DNA of 64,000 nucleotides, from the NCBI RefSeq assembly GCF_056712565.1, contig NZ_CM160072.1; one strand, written 5' to 3'. The position numbers are program-made. How positions within the stretch are numbered: position 1 is the stretch's first letter; each line of letters begins with the position of its first letter. This document shows positions 21,501 to 24,500 of the stretch, one piece after another.

Positions 21501-24500
21501 AGACCGGCACCTGACGACTATCAAAGCCACGAACTTTGACCTGTTCTTCGTTGCGGCTACCTGACTTTTGCAGCACCACGCCGGGGACGACACTTAATGC
21601 CTGAGCGACATTCTGTTTATCCAGGGCCTTCATGGTGGGTTGATCGAGAACGGTGGTCGTCGTTGATGATACCGGACTGGACCATACGGTCAGCGTGTCG
21701 CTCTCCTGAGCCGCTACGGCCTGCTGGGTAAAGGCAAGTGTTAATACTGTGCAGAGATAACGTTTTTTGAGTCTCATAGAATAAATTCCGTTTAACAAAG
21801 AATTAAATAGAGGCTGCGGGTTGCAGACTGACTTTAATGTCAGCAGGTGCCGCGTAATAAGGCGCGGAGGTAATAAAAAGGCGAATGCCGCAGTCGAGGT
21901 AATTTTTGAGTGTTGTCAGATTAATTCCGCCGGTCAGAGCCAGCGTGCAGTGGGGAGCCAGCGACGGTGCTATTTGCGCAATTTCAGTTGCCTGTTGCGG
22001 ACTAAATTTGTCGAGCTGAAGTACGTCTGGTTGCGCGCGTAACGCGGCGATTGCCTCTTTCGGCGTGTCGGCTTCAACAACTATTTTCTTCTCGGGTGCG
22101 TGGCGACGTAACTGATTGATTGCGCCTGACCAGTCCTGATTGTCATGAAGAAAATGGCGGTGGTTGGCAAACAATAATATGGTTTCCGCACATCCGGCAC
22201 GATGAATCAGTCCTCCGGCAGCCAGAATTGCCTGCGAGGCCAGTAAGCGGGTGCCCGGAATTGCTTTTCGGGTGCAGGCGATATTGCCATCAGGGTAACG
22301 TTCACGAAGTAACGCCAGCATTTGAGCGAGATAATCAGAAACACCGCAACTCCACTCCAGCACATTCTGGACTGCCTTCCATCCCTGATGAAGTGCTGCG
22401 GCATTACCTTGCGCACGGATTAGCCGCTGACCCGCGTTCGCTTGTGAACCGTCGCTGACCGCGTCATCAATAGTTAATCCCAGCGTAGTTAACATCTTAC
22501 ACGCGACAGAAATTCCGCTGACGCAGCCGCCCTGACGGAGAAAAAACTCTATATAGCCATGCTGGTGTCCAATATTTAATGCTCGCGTGGTCAGGTCACC
22601 GCCCTGGATATCTTCCAGAAGTAACGCATCGATTTGTGCCTGAGAAAGGAAAATCATCGCAGTGTCTCCTGCGGTACGCTATCCCACCAGATGAGCGCCC
22701 AGTCGCGGCTGGCAGGGGCGAGGGCACGAGCATCTTGTTGTTGATACCAGCGATATAACCGCTCACGCTCATCGTCGTTAAGCGCGCCCAGACTCCAGCT
22801 GACGTTCTGCTCAAAACGTTCCCAGGTGCTGTTATCCTGTTGGCAATTTTGTCCACGGATAAAATCAACGTGAGCATAAATTCCCATCTGATACAGGACG
22901 TTGAGTGCAAAGATATAGTTGGGTAATTCGATCACTTCCCGACCAGCCGCCCGCTGAATGGCTGGAGAGACGAACGAGGTGCTGACCAGATGAGTCGTAT
23001 AGACGCGAAGCCGTGCCTGATTATTCAGTTTGCTCATTGCCTGGCGCATATCAGCCACCAGAGTGGAGCGGGAAGCCACGGCAATATCGCAGCGTGGCAG
23101 GTCACTCCAGTCCTCTTCCCAGGCGCGCTGGATCCAGTGGACATTGTCTGCCTTTAGCGCGGCGGCGCGACGGGCGGCAACGTTCAGCATCCCCTGACTG
23201 TAATCAACGCCATAAATCGTCGTGAGTTTGTCCGCCAGCGCCAGCGATACGGTACCCGGTCCGCAGCCCATATCGAATAAGGTTTGCGCGCCTTGCAGGT
23301 CAATTTTTGAGGTCAGTTGTTGCAGGTAGCTGTCCGTAGGCGAGGCGCAATTTTCCGCCATTTTTTCCGCCCGTTGATCCCAGTGATCCGGCGTTTTTTC
23401 TGTGCGATGGGCCAGCCTGAGTTGCTGAAGGTAAAGGTCTGCAAAATCAATATCGTCAATGAGCATGATTTTTCCTTAGTGCTTAATTGCAGAGAGGTGA
23501 TGGTGAATCTGGTCGGCAGAAACCCGGTACAGGGCAGCCAGTTTTTTCGTTGTTAACTGTTCGGTCGGTAAGCCTTGTGTTACTCGTCCATCTGGCTCTA
23601 CCTGGATAATGCTGTCGGCAATGGCGTTTGCATGGAGCGGATGATGAGTCGACATTAACATTGTCATGCCGTTATTTTTGAGCTGCGCCAGCGTGTCCAG
23701 AAGTTGGATCTGATGACCGAAATCGAGGCTGGAGGCAGGCTCATCCAGTAATAACAAGCGCGGTTGCTGGACGAGTGCACGGGCGATTAAAGCCAGCTGA
23801 CGTTCACCGCCGCTAAGCGTATTCCAGCGTCGTGCCGCCAGATGCAAAATGCCCAGCTTTTCCAGTTGCTCCGTTGCTTTCAGGCGTTCTTGCTTACCGG
23901 GAACGGAAAAAGCGCCTATGGTGGGGGCCAGGCCCATCAACACCATATCCAGCACACTAAAAGCAAAAATGCCGTCGTGCGCCTGCGGCACCCAGGCAAT
24001 AGCCTGCGCGCGCTGGCGATGGCTGAGTGTCTGCACAGGGAGGCTATCCAGTAAGATCTCGCCTTTTAATAACGGTATAACGCCAAGAATGGAGCGCATG
24101 AGTGTGGTTTTGCCGCAACCATTGGCTCCTAACAGACAACAAATTGTTCCTTGCGACAGGGTGAAGGACACGTCGCGTAGCACCGGATGGCGGGAGTAAC
24201 CCAGAGACGCATGACGGACGGCAAGCAAAGTCACTGGCGACCTCCGCGTAACAACAAAAACAGGAAAAACGGTGCGCCAACAAAAGCGGTCAGAATGCCA
24301 AGTGGGATTTCTGTTGTTCCAATGCTGCGTGCCAGCGTATCGGTAAGCAGGAGCAGAATCGCGCCAGTACACATTGCCATGGGCAACAGCTGCTGATGGT
24401 TATGACCGGTCAACAAGCGGGCAATGTGCGGAACGACCAGGCCGACCCAACCAATTATGCCCGCTATTGCTACCGTGCTGGCGGTGATGAGTGTGGCACA

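What the first reader, a model, noticed from the sequence alone, without database searches (positions are those of the whole stretch)
23476..24234. Translational coupling within the accessory operon and an over-extended ORF call
The ORF-track ATPase (298 aa) begins inside the permease gene. The ATPase domain aligns from a GTG whose sequence overlaps the permease stop as GTGA, and the ModD-like and methyltransferase genes overlap by 4 nt. This arrangement argues that the six genes form one co-translated operon rather than independent genes.
Basis: seen in the sequence. Interest (0 to 1): 0.2.

Follow-up and report, generated by a model that had tools for sequence, protein, structure and literature searches.

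The report
Overlapping gene starts in transporter operon
The ATPase gene of an accessory E. coli uptake operon really starts at a GTG that overlaps the stop codon of the preceding permease gene, so the 298-residue ORF is a longest-ORF artefact; this is ordinary and already annotated, but the operon carries a conserved molybdate-regulator (ModE) binding site and no iron-regulator (Fur) site.

Summary
Confirmed, and ordinary. On the minus strand the permease gene (25211..24231) ends in TGA and the ATPase gene starts at GTG 24234, giving GTGA, with GGAGG 6 nt upstream. RefSeq already annotates this 252-aa protein. Seven related loci with DNA from other genera put an ATG at the same place (ATGA in six, TGATG in one), and none has an in-frame start further upstream. 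Across the 138-nt "extension" only the permease frame is conserved. The methyltransferase and ModD genes overlap as ATGA, and the binding-protein and permease genes as TAATG.

The six genes lie between one promoter region and one terminator-like hairpin, with no Rfam hit and no excess of terminator-like sites. A single operon is well supported for E. coli. Translational coupling is inferred, not shown.

The locus is the published prrA-modD-yc73-fepC cluster, labelled "iron uptake" and present in 2139 of 5426 complete E. coli genomes.

Side result: a 24-bp palindrome with the architecture of the K-12 modA operator lies 20-35 nt upstream of the first gene in all seven enterobacterial-type loci. 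No Fur box exceeds shuffled controls in the six regions tested. The cluster may therefore be molybdate-controlled, which I could not find stated in the searchable literature.

The parts
26258..26281 (-). 24-bp palindrome CGCTATATGTATAAGTATATAGCG: a ModE-type operator candidate, 24 nt upstream of the first gene's ATG
   Evidence: Only match in the 64-kb window to CGNTATAT-N8-ATATANCG (0 mismatches; 0.19 expected even with up to 2 mismatches allowed). It has the same architecture as the K-12 modA operator CGTTATATTGTCGCCTACATAACG. It is conserved in seven enterobacterial-type loci and in three E. coli variants. It contains all invariant columns of the 9-sequence promoter alignment.
26299..26304 (-). 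TTGACA, a -35-like hexamer 17 nt upstream of the palindrome
   Evidence: Read. TTGATA and TTGATC lie at the same 17-nt distance in C. koseri and Raoultella. The -10 element is not resolved, and no transcription start is known.
25211..26233 (-). Periplasmic substrate-binding protein gene (340 aa, Peripla_BP_2) with a twin-arginine signal (MSLTRRRF...)
   Evidence: Pfam PF01497 8.8e-17. RefSeq start at 26233. RR motif conserved in eight orthologues. The 354-aa ORF from 26275 is also over-extended (Shine-Dalgarno duplex +0.6 against -4.1 kcal/mol).
24231..25211 (-). FecCD-family permease gene (326 aa); its start overlaps the binding-protein stop as TAATG
   Evidence: PF01032 4.1e-89. Best solved relative is HI1471 (MolB), 9.4e-65. 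Junction.
24241..24245 (-). Shine-Dalgarno GGAGG inside the last permease codons (Arg-Gly-Gly), 6 nt before the GTG
   Evidence: Duplex with the 16S 3' end is -10.2 kcal/mol, in the top 1.5% of 275 start-like triplets in the operon. GGAGG, AGGAG or GGGAG lies at this place in the six orthologous loci; the low-GC locus L016 has only AAGGCGGGA there.
24231..24234 (-). GTGA: ATPase start codon overlapping the permease stop codon
   Evidence: ATGA in six other loci and TGATG in Yersinia. TTGA in E. coli WCHEC96200.
23476..24234 (-). ABC transporter ATP-binding protein gene (252 aa): the true extent
   Evidence: RefSeq WP_000173308.1 has these limits. PF00005 1.7e-30; the FecE, FhuC and heme-ATPase profiles align from ORF residues 48-50. 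HI1470 (MolC) 1.5e-35 and FhuC 2.6e-34. Walker A GANGCGKT, signature LSGGERQ and Walker B LLLLDEP are visible in the translation.
24235..24372 (-). Spurious 46-codon N-terminal extension of the ORF-list call, lying inside the permease gene
   Evidence: amino-acid identity to orthologues is 20-30% in this frame against 69-84% in the permease frame; 27-31 of 42-52 substitutions fall at permease codon position 3; three orthologues have in-frame stops. No Shine-Dalgarno sequence (-1.5 kcal/mol). No orthologue has a start codon here.
22654..23466 (-). Class I SAM-dependent methyltransferase gene (270 aa; 'yc73' in the literature), 9 nt after the ATPase stop, with its own AAGGA
   Evidence: Pfam Methyltransf_25/31. 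No NCBIfam match reaches its cut-off, and there is no solved relative. Orthologues occur across Enterobacterales and Shewanella.
22654..22657 (-). ATGA: ModD start overlapping the methyltransferase stop
   Evidence: ATGA in six of the seven loci that have both genes.
21803..22657 (-). modD gene (284 aa), a paralogue of quinolinate phosphoribosyltransferase
   Evidence: TIGR01334 ModD 8.2e-152 (cut-off 178.85). PF01729 and PF02749. Nearest solved structures are NadC enzymes, 2.3e-20.
19807..21777 (-). TonB-dependent receptor gene (656 aa; 'prrA' in the literature), 25 nt after modD
   Evidence: Plug and beta-barrel domains. RefSeq start MRLKKRY. Sec-type signal peptides in orthologues. No NCBIfam model reaches its curated cut-off, and there is no close solved structure.
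19770..19799 (-). 11-bp GC-rich hairpin 7 nt after the receptor stop codon: likely the operon terminator, shared with convergent ymgE
   Evidence: stem GCGGAUAGCGG/UCGCUAUCCGC. Sequence. The U-tract is weak, and the simple terminator scan did not list it.

Best explanation
The feature is the permease/ATPase junction of a six-gene accessory operon on the minus strand.

**Gene order:** substrate-binding protein, FecCD-type permease, ABC ATPase, SAM methyltransferase, ModD, TonB-dependent receptor.

**Shown:**
- The ATPase gene begins at GTG 24234. This codon overlaps the permease stop as GTGA and follows a strong GGAGG by 6 nt.
- The 298-aa ORF is produced by the "first start after a stop" rule, because a Met-Cys codon pair in the permease creates an out-of-frame GTG.

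**Inferred:**
- A ribosome that ends the permease at TGA is held by the nearby Shine-Dalgarno sequence and restarts on the overlapping GTG.
- Permease and ATPase, which work as a 2:2 complex in this transporter class, would then be made in linked amounts.
- The TAATG and ATGA junctions would link binding protein to permease, and methyltransferase to ModD, in the same way.
- The other two junctions (9 nt and 25 nt) use their own Shine-Dalgarno sequences on the same mRNA.
- In E. coli the unit runs from a promoter overlapping a ModE-type operator (26258..26304) to a hairpin at 19770..19799.
For: - **Sequence.** GTGA and GGAGG are read directly from the window.
- **Annotation.** RefSeq/PGAP calls the same 759-nt gene, with a 4-nt overlap on the permease gene.
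- **Orthologue starts.** Citrobacter koseri, Raoultella, Gibbsiella, Pectobacterium, Yersinia, a low-GC locus (L016) and a high-GC metagenome locus all start at an ATG overlapping the permease stop. None has an in-frame ATG, GTG or TTG upstream, although that frame stays open for up to 108 codons.
- **Frame conservation.** Over the 138-nt extension, permease-frame identity is 69-84% and ATPase-frame identity 20-30%. Substitutions pile up at permease codon position 3, and three orthologues have in-frame stops.
- **Ribosome binding.** Shine-Dalgarno duplex is -10.2 kcal/mol at 24234 against -1.5 at 24372.
- **Profile alignments.** The FecE, FhuC, heme and F420-0 ATPase profiles align from ORF residues 48-50, with the GTG at residue 47. 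The PDB alignments do the same.
- **Start-codon variation.** The first base of the start codon is A, G or T across strains and genera, all of which can initiate translation.
- **Operon.** Junction gaps are -1, -4, +9, -4 and +25 nt. Terminator-like sites are no more frequent than in shuffles, 10 against 8.6. A hairpin follows directly after the last gene. Gene order is kept in seven loci.
Against: - No transcript or protein data were available, so co-transcription and coupling rest on anatomy and conservation.
- The junction RNA has no unusual structure (z = +0.35), so coupling by unmasking of a hidden start is not supported.
- The strong Shine-Dalgarno sequence could also allow independent initiation.
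- A TTG two codons downstream (24228) shares the same Shine-Dalgarno sequence, though at a poor 12-nt spacing.
- In four other genera the receptor gene is set apart by 86-131 nt with a hairpin. A second ModE-like site is also present in three of them, and a weaker one in Gibbsiella. An internal promoter in E. coli cannot be excluded.
Confidence: 0.9

Rival explanations
1. The 298-aa form is real: the ATPase carries a 46-residue N-terminal extension translated from GTG 24372 inside the permease gene.
For: The ORF is open and begins with a permitted start codon. It is retained in the E. coli copies examined.
Against: - No Shine-Dalgarno sequence (-1.5 kcal/mol).
- No orthologue has a start codon there, and three have in-frame stops.
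- The extension frame is 20-30% identical between genera, against 69-84% for the permease frame.
- No family profile covers residues 1-47.
- RefSeq does not call it.
Confidence: 0.02
2. The start site is right, but the overlaps are only genome compaction. Each gene is initiated independently from its own Shine-Dalgarno sequence, and there is no functional translational coupling.
For: - The GTG has the strongest Shine-Dalgarno sequence in the operon.
- There is no masking RNA structure.
- Two of the five junctions do not overlap.
Against: - The stop/start overlap is kept in all eight loci with DNA across deep divergence, although the surrounding third-codon positions have turned over.
- From my own knowledge, not tested here: 4-nt and 1-nt overlaps are the classes for which termination-reinitiation has been shown experimentally in bacteria and archaea.
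- A weak GTG or TTG start in E. coli would benefit from ribosome hand-over.
Confidence: 0.2
3. The six genes are not one transcription unit in E. coli. The receptor gene (and perhaps the enzyme genes) has its own promoter, as seems to be the case in other genera.
For: In Pectobacterium, Gibbsiella, Yersinia and L016 the modD-to-receptor gap is 86-131 nt and holds a hairpin. Three of them also have a ModE-like site with a perfect CGTTATATAAA arm; Gibbsiella has a weaker one.
Against: - In E. coli, C. koseri and Raoultella the gap is only 23-25 nt, with no such site or hairpin.
- The only promoter-like match near the receptor gene's 5' end lies inside that gene (21693..21666).
- Promoter-like matches are no more frequent than in shuffles, 7 against 7.8.
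Confidence: 0.12
4. The true start is the TTG at 24228, two codons downstream of the GTG.
For: TTG is a permitted start and follows the same GGAGG.
Against: - Spacing to the Shine-Dalgarno sequence is 12 nt, against 6 nt for the GTG.
- Orthologues have ATG at the GTG position and no conserved start at the TTG position: their N-termini are MTRL, MTLL, MNVV, MTIV and MIIT.
Confidence: 0.03

Closest known systems
[quoted passage not shown]
   Same: This is that cluster.
- A TonB receptor, ModD, a methyltransferase, a FepC-like ATPase and two further transport genes are reported as a roughly 6.4-kb accessory region of ExPEC and AIEC strains (PMC12928451; PMC1890555).
- The window is 100% identical over 7.3 kb to strains S88, IHE3034, APEC O18 and ATCC 11775.
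   Different: - The literature found here calls it a possible iron-uptake system, citing Ye & Xu 2001, which I could not read.
- The evidence here shows no Fur box and does show a ModE-type operator.
- The junction anatomy is not discussed in the papers I could read.
Haemophilus influenzae MolBC-A (HI1470/HI1471/HI1472), a type II ABC importer of molybdate/tungstate that lies beside modA and modD
   Same: - The permease's best solved relative is HI1471, 9.4e-65.
- The ATPase's best full-length single-domain match is HI1470, 1.5e-35.
- In H. influenzae the mol genes lie next to modA and modD (PMC3928620).
   Different: - The binding protein resembles MolA only weakly (1.2e-7 over about 76 residues). 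It is closer to an uncharacterised binding protein, 4PAG, at 6.9e-26.
- No TonB-dependent receptor or methyltransferase is listed with the H. influenzae genes in that paper.
- The cargo here is unknown.
Stop/start-overlapping (ATGA, TAATG) gene pairs translated by termination-reinitiation in bacterial operons
   Same: Same strand, 4-nt or 1-nt overlap, and a Shine-Dalgarno sequence embedded in the upstream gene. The partner genes encode subunits of one complex.
   Different: Nothing structural differs. E. coli uses GTG or TTG instead of ATG. Functional coupling has not been measured for this pair.
E. coli modABC promoter/operator bound by ModE-molybdate
   Same: A 24-bp inverted repeat CGnTATAT-N8-ATATAnCG lies just upstream of the first gene of a transport operon. 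Eleven columns are invariant between the modA site and the eight cluster promoters.
   Different: - ModE binding to this site has not been tested.
- The transcription start is unknown.
- The operon encodes a TonB-dependent, FecCD-type system plus two cytoplasmic enzymes, rather than a ModABC-type oxyanion transporter.

Membership tests
Translationally coupled overlapping gene pair (termination-reinitiation type) | Same-strand genes whose stop and start codons overlap (ATGA/GTGA or TAATG/TGATG) | tested here: met
   GTGA at 24234..24231, ATGA at 22657..22654, TAATG at 25211.
Translationally coupled overlapping gene pair (termination-reinitiation type) | Shine-Dalgarno sequence for the downstream gene inside the upstream coding sequence, at working distance | tested here: met
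   GGAGG 6 nt upstream, -10.2 kcal/mol. A GGAGG-like motif is conserved at this place in the six orthologous loci; the low-GC locus L016 has only AAGGCGGGA.
Translationally coupled overlapping gene pair (termination-reinitiation type) | The overlap is conserved among orthologous operons | tested here: met
   Seven of seven other loci with DNA, plus the gene calls of one locus without DNA.
Translationally coupled overlapping gene pair (termination-reinitiation type) | Downstream translation depends on translation of the upstream gene | not testable with these tools
   Needs reporter fusions with premature stop codons, or ribosome profiling. The fold test found no masking structure.
Type II (BtuCD/FecCD-type) ABC importer | FecCD-family permease, an ABC ATPase with Walker A/B and signature motifs, and a class III (Peripla_BP_2) binding protein encoded together | tested here: met
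   PF01032 4.1e-89, PF00005 1.7e-30, PF01497 8.8e-17. Motifs GANGCGKT, LSGGERQ and LLLLDEP are in the translation.
prrA-modD-yc73-fepC cluster | Gene content (TonB receptor, ModD, methyltransferase, FepC-like ATPase, two further transport genes) in a roughly 6.4-kb accessory region of ExPEC | tested here: met
   Gene content. Size is 19807..26233 = 6427 bp, against 6382 bp reported. 100% identity to ExPEC genomes. The name was assigned from descriptions in the papers, not from a sequence comparison with the original CFT073 entry.
Fur-regulated iron-uptake operon | Fur box (GATAATGATAATCATTATC-like) in the promoter region | tested here: not met
   Best matches are 10-13 of 19 in six upstream regions, no better than shuffles; fraction of shuffles at least as good is 0.23-0.91.
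Fur-regulated iron-uptake operon | Membership in a characterised siderophore, heme or citrate receptor or transporter family | tested here: not met
   No NCBIfam model reaches its curated cut-off for the receptor, binding protein, permease or ATPase. The receptor has no close solved relative.
ModE (molybdate-responsive) regulon | Inverted repeat of the modA-operator type (CGnTATAT-N8-ATATAnCG; TATAT-N7-TAYAT core) at the promoter | tested here: met
   Exact pattern match at 26258..26281, the only one in 64 kb. Direct comparison with the K-12 modA operator. The consensus wording comes from my memory of the ModE literature; Studholme & Pau 2003 could not be opened.
ModE (molybdate-responsive) regulon | Site conserved at the orthologous position in other species | tested here: met
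   Seven loci, 20-35 nt upstream of the first gene's ATG. The site contains all the invariant columns of the promoter alignment. A 23-nt relative lies before the receptor gene in a distant high-GC locus.
ModE (molybdate-responsive) regulon | ModE-molybdate binds the site and molybdate represses transcription | not testable with these tools
   Needs a gel-shift or footprint assay, and expression assays with and without molybdate and modE.
MolBC-A molybdate/tungstate importer | Permease and ATPase closest to MolB and MolC | tested here: met
   HI1471 9.4e-65 against the next hit, FhuB, at 1.8e-50. HI1470 1.5e-35, about equal to FhuC at 2.6e-34.
MolBC-A molybdate/tungstate importer | Binding protein orthologous to MolA with its oxyanion site | tested here: inconclusive
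   Only a weak partial match to HI_1472, 1.2e-7 over residues 214-289. There is a better match to uncharacterised 4PAG. Binding-site residues were not compared.

The most novel reading that the evidence does not exclude
The "iron-uptake" prrA-modD-yc73-fepC cluster may instead be a molybdate-repressed (ModE-controlled), TonB-dependent pathway for acquiring molybdenum or tungsten. That would be a route across the outer membrane not established for Enterobacteria.

The proposed path is as follows. A Tat-exported binding protein and a MolBC-like importer carry a Mo/W species, either the oxyanion or a larger chelate or cofactor-like carrier, into the cytoplasm. There the ModD phosphoribosyltransferase-like enzyme and the methyltransferase process the carrier.

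Support:
- A conserved modA-type operator in seven loci and three E. coli variants, plus second sites before the receptor gene in other genera.
- No Fur box.
- MolB/MolC as the nearest solved relatives.
- A di-Mop molbindin gene, YiiM-like MOSC genes, or a TOBE gene next to the cluster in other genera.

Regulation by ModE alone I rate at about 0.7. The full statement, including Mo/W-related cargo, I rate lower.
Probability: 0.4. Interest if true: 0.6.

Novelty: already known. Interest (0 to 1): 0.15.

Why it matters
**The finding as written.** It matters only for annotation hygiene. A "longest ORF" track over-calls three of the six genes here: the ATPase by 46 codons, the binding protein by 14 and the receptor by 7. 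Curated annotation already has the correct starts. Stop/start overlaps that tie subunits of one transporter together are textbook operon design.

**The by-product.** This could matter more. The cluster is present in about 39% of complete E. coli genomes, is enriched in extraintestinal pathogens, and is routinely listed among iron-acquisition virulence genes. It nevertheless shows the regulatory signature of molybdate control, not iron control.

If that holds, it changes how the cluster is counted in virulence-gene surveys. It would also offer a testable entry point to two open questions: what ModD does, and how molybdenum crosses the outer membrane when it is scarce.

Tried and rejected
- **The fit iron system.** Rejected. 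fit has two permeases and an RpiR-like regulator, FitR (PMC2593036).
- **Riboswitch or other known RNA upstream or inside the operon** (for example a cobalamin riboswitch, suggested by BtuC-like hits). No Rfam match at E <= 1 in 19000..27000.
- **Fur box.** None above shuffled controls in six promoter regions.
- **Start-masking RNA structure at the GTGA junction.** Not supported: MFE -23.9 against a shuffle mean of -24.9, z = +0.35.
- **Small hairpin over the modD Shine-Dalgarno sequence** (22673..22658). It is not conserved in orthologues, so I treat it as chance.
- **Plus-strand ORFs inside the ATPase gene** (23842..24054, 23849..24199). These are shadow ORFs opposite a strongly supported gene.
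- **Foreign base composition.** The island is 50-55% GC, like its flanks.
- **Literature.** Searches for ModD with TonB, molybdate or ExPEC found nothing on regulation or cargo of this cluster. Key papers were not held in the library: Tirado-Lee 2011, Ye & Xu 2001 and Studholme & Pau 2003.
- **Divergent E. coli copy.** The 92%-identical copy (L012) is a decaying locus and added little.
- **Large scans not run.** I did not run the genome contigs or metagenome scans, nor structure prediction. Eight loci already settled the start site, and a fold model would not reveal the cargo.
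Full report
**Where the window comes from.** The flanking genes are ldcA, emtA, ycgR and ymgE on one side and treA, dhaM, dhaL and dhaK on the other. The 7.3-kb region is 100% identical to phylogroup-B2 extraintestinal E. coli such as S88, IHE3034, APEC O18 and ATCC 11775. Six minus-strand genes lie between ymgE and treA:
- a Peripla_BP_2 binding protein
- a FecCD permease
- an ABC ATPase
- a class I SAM methyltransferase
- ModD (TIGR01334, 8.2e-152)
- a TonB-dependent receptor

K-12 has 622 nt carrying ycgY in place of window 19831..26568. It keeps the last ~24 nt of the receptor gene and the hairpin after it. Base composition is not foreign. At least 80% of the region is present in 2139 of 5426 complete E. 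coli genomes.

**Checking the observation.** The ORF list gives a 298-aa ORF at 23476..24372 that begins 141 nt inside the permease gene, 24231..25211.
- The minus strand reads CGC GGA GGT CGC CAG TGA in the permease frame. GTG (24234..24232) therefore overlaps TGA (24233..24231), and GGAGG lies 6 nt upstream.
- The methyltransferase and ModD genes overlap as ATGA (22657..22654).
- The binding-protein and permease genes overlap as TAATG (25211).
- The remaining gaps are 9 nt and 25 nt.

All statements in the finding are correct.

**Which start is real.** Six lines of evidence agree on GTG 24234.
1. RefSeq/PGAP annotates exactly 759 nt (252 aa, WP_000173308.1), overlapping the permease gene by 4 nt.
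2. Seven related loci with DNA were examined: Citrobacter koseri, Raoultella, Gibbsiella, Pectobacterium parmentieri, Yersinia enterocolitica, a low-GC genome (L016) and a high-GC metagenome contig. In all of them the ATPase starts at an ATG overlapping the permease stop (ATGA six times, TGATG once). None has any in-frame ATG, GTG or TTG further upstream, although that frame is open for 0-108 codons.
3. Over the 138 nt of the E. coli extension, the permease frame is 69-84% identical in amino acids to the five enterobacterial orthologues. The ATPase frame is only 20-30% identical. Of the 42-52 substitutions, 27-31 fall at permease codon position 3, and three orthologues have stop codons in the extension frame.
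4. The Shine-Dalgarno duplex is -10.2 kcal/mol at 24234, in the top 1.5% of 275 start-like triplets in the operon. It is -1.5 kcal/mol at 24372.
5. The NCBIfam profiles for FecE, FhuC, heme and F420-0 ATPases align from ORF residues 48-50 to profile positions 2-10. The GTG is at residue 47. The PDB alignments behave the same way.
6. Within E. coli the start is GTG in four copies and TTG in strain WCHEC96200, while other genera have ATG. The first base is the wobble position of the last permease codon, and every variant seen keeps a start-capable codon.

**Why the long ORF exists.** In this frame a start codon requires a TGN (Cys or Trp) codon in the permease, and a stop requires T followed by AA, AG or GA. 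Both are rare in a hydrophobic transmembrane helix, so the frame stays open. E. coli alone has Met-Cys (ATG TGT) at 24374..24369. The same "first start after a stop" rule over-extends two other genes:
- the binding protein: 354 aa called against 340 aa real, where the real N-terminus is a conserved twin-arginine signal
- the receptor: 663 aa called against 656 aa real

**Operon and coupling.** Gene order is kept in seven loci.
- The permease-to-ATPase overlap is universal.
- The binding-protein-to-permease junction is -1 or -4 in the seven enterobacterial-type loci, and -11 in the metagenome locus.
- The methyltransferase-to-ModD junction is -4 in six of the seven loci that have both genes.
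- In E. coli, terminator-like and promoter-like matches inside the operon are no more frequent than in shuffles.
- No Rfam family matches.
- An 11-bp GC-rich hairpin begins 7 nt after the receptor stop codon (19770..19799).

I conclude that E. coli has one transcription unit of six genes, with stop/start hand-over at three junctions. Coupling itself is inferred. There is no start-masking structure at the junction, and the strong Shine-Dalgarno sequence would also allow independent initiation.

In Pectobacterium, Gibbsiella, Yersinia and L016 the receptor gene lies 86-131 nt after modD, behind a hairpin. It is also preceded by a ModE-like site in three of them, plus a weaker site in Gibbsiella. 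There it is probably a second transcription unit.

**What the locus is called.** It is not the fit system. It matches the "prrA-modD-yc73-fepC" cluster, which is described as a roughly 6.4-kb ExPEC/AIEC region "possibly mediating iron uptake". The same cluster is reported as OI#55 / S-loop#83 in O157:H7 (PMC12928451 and PMC1890555).

**Side finding: regulation looks molybdate-dependent, not iron-dependent.** A 24-bp palindrome, CGCTATATGTATAAGTATATAGCG (26258..26281), lies 24 nt upstream of the first gene's ATG.
- **Uniqueness.** It is the only match in the window to CGNTATAT-N8-ATATANCG.
- **Architecture.** It has the same architecture as the K-12 modA operator CGTTATATTGTCGCCTACATAACG. That this modA sequence is the ModE-molybdate binding site is established knowledge recalled by me; the source papers could not be opened.
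- **Conservation.** Equivalent sites lie 20-35 nt upstream of the first gene in all seven enterobacterial-type loci and in three E. coli sequence variants. In an alignment of eight cluster promoters with the modA promoter, all invariant columns fall inside this element.
- **No iron signature.** No Fur box exceeds shuffled controls in the six upstream regions tested.
- **Other links to molybdenum:**
  - The best solved relatives of the permease and ATPase are MolB and MolC of H. influenzae. Their genes lie beside modA and modD (PMC3928620).
  - A di-Mop molbindin gene precedes the Pectobacterium operon (TIGR00638, 4.9e-41).
  - YiiM-like MOSC genes follow the Yersinia and Raoultella operons.
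  - A TOBE gene and exbB-exbD-tonB lie near a distant relative of the cluster.
- **Weak points.** The binding protein is only weakly like MolA, the cargo is unknown, and ModE binding is untested.
- **Prior literature.** I found no paper in the searchable library that links this cluster to ModE or molybdenum. I could not consult Studholme & Pau 2003 or RegPrecise, so a prior prediction cannot be excluded.

**Verdict.** The finding is correct, ordinary, and already reflected in public annotation, so its interest is low. The most novel reading left open is a ModE-controlled, TonB-dependent molybdenum or tungsten acquisition system that has been mislabelled as iron uptake.

Noticed in passing
window 26258-26304 (minus strand); L002, L004, L006, L007, L009, L016 upstream of the binding-protein gene: A conserved 24-bp modA-type (ModE) operator lies 20-35 nt before the first gene of the cluster in seven loci. 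A -35-like hexamer sits exactly 17 nt upstream of it in E. coli, C. koseri and Raoultella. No Fur box is present, although the literature calls the cluster an iron-uptake system.
   Followed up: yes
L004 6668-6763, L007 6658-6743, L016 8671-8801, L006 6662-6759: In genera with a long modD-to-receptor gap, the gap holds a hairpin. It is followed by a second ModE-like site (perfect CGTTATATAAA arm, degenerate right arm) in three of them, and by a weaker site in Gibbsiella. The receptor gene may have its own molybdate-controlled promoter there. E. coli, C. koseri and Raoultella have lost this spacer (23-25 nt).
   Followed up: partly
window 24234; L015 2487: The ATPase start codon is polymorphic in E. 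coli: GTG in the window and three other strains, TTG in strain WCHEC96200. All other genera have ATG. The variable base is the wobble position of the last permease codon (Gln CAG/CAA, or His CAT).
   Followed up: partly
window 26234-26275 and 21778-21798: Two further ORF-list calls in the same operon are over-extended: the binding protein (354 aa called, 340 aa real) and the receptor (663 aa from a TTG called, 656 aa real). The false binding-protein start lies inside the ModE-type palindrome.
   Followed up: yes
window 26152-26233 (binding-protein N-terminus): The binding protein has a twin-arginine (Tat-type) signal, MSLTRRRFTQ... The RR motif is conserved in all eight orthologues examined.
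   Followed up: partly
L012 (strain FDAARGOS_943) and L014 (cattle strain 112): The cluster is decaying in some E. coli. L012 has an internal stop in the binding-protein gene and a truncated permease gene. L014 has an internal stop in the methyltransferase gene and a frameshifted treA next door.
   Followed up: no
window 19807-19830 and 26569; L017 (K-12): K-12 carries ycgY (622 nt) in place of window 19831..26568 but retains the last ~24 nt of the receptor gene and the downstream hairpin. This suggests replacement or loss of the cluster in the K-12 lineage rather than insertion in B2 strains. The treA 3' end is only about 84% identical between the two.
   Followed up: partly
L005 (Leminorella), L008 (Edwardsiella tarda), L003 (Shewanella mangrovi): The methyltransferase-ModD pair occurs without any transporter genes in Leminorella (after a TetR gene) and in Edwardsiella. 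In Edwardsiella a 315-aa ATPase-methyltransferase fusion protein (P0112) hints at a decayed transporter. Shewanella has the methyltransferase alone. The enzymes' role may therefore not depend strictly on this transporter.
   Followed up: no
L013 6556-7101 and the locus without DNA: In distant high-GC relatives a DUF2478 gene replaces ModD in the cluster (receptor, DUF2478, binding protein, permease, ATPase, methyltransferase). A 23-nt palindrome, CGCTATTCATTTTTTGAATAACG, lies 8 nt before the receptor gene's ATG.
   Followed up: partly
window 22658-22673 (minus strand): A 5-bp hairpin (CGCAG...CTGCG) covers the modD Shine-Dalgarno sequence AGGAG just before the ATGA overlap. It is not conserved in other genera and is probably chance.
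   Followed up: partly
E. coli genomes: Eight of the 2142 matches to the junction region lie on plasmids rather than chromosomes.
   Followed up: no
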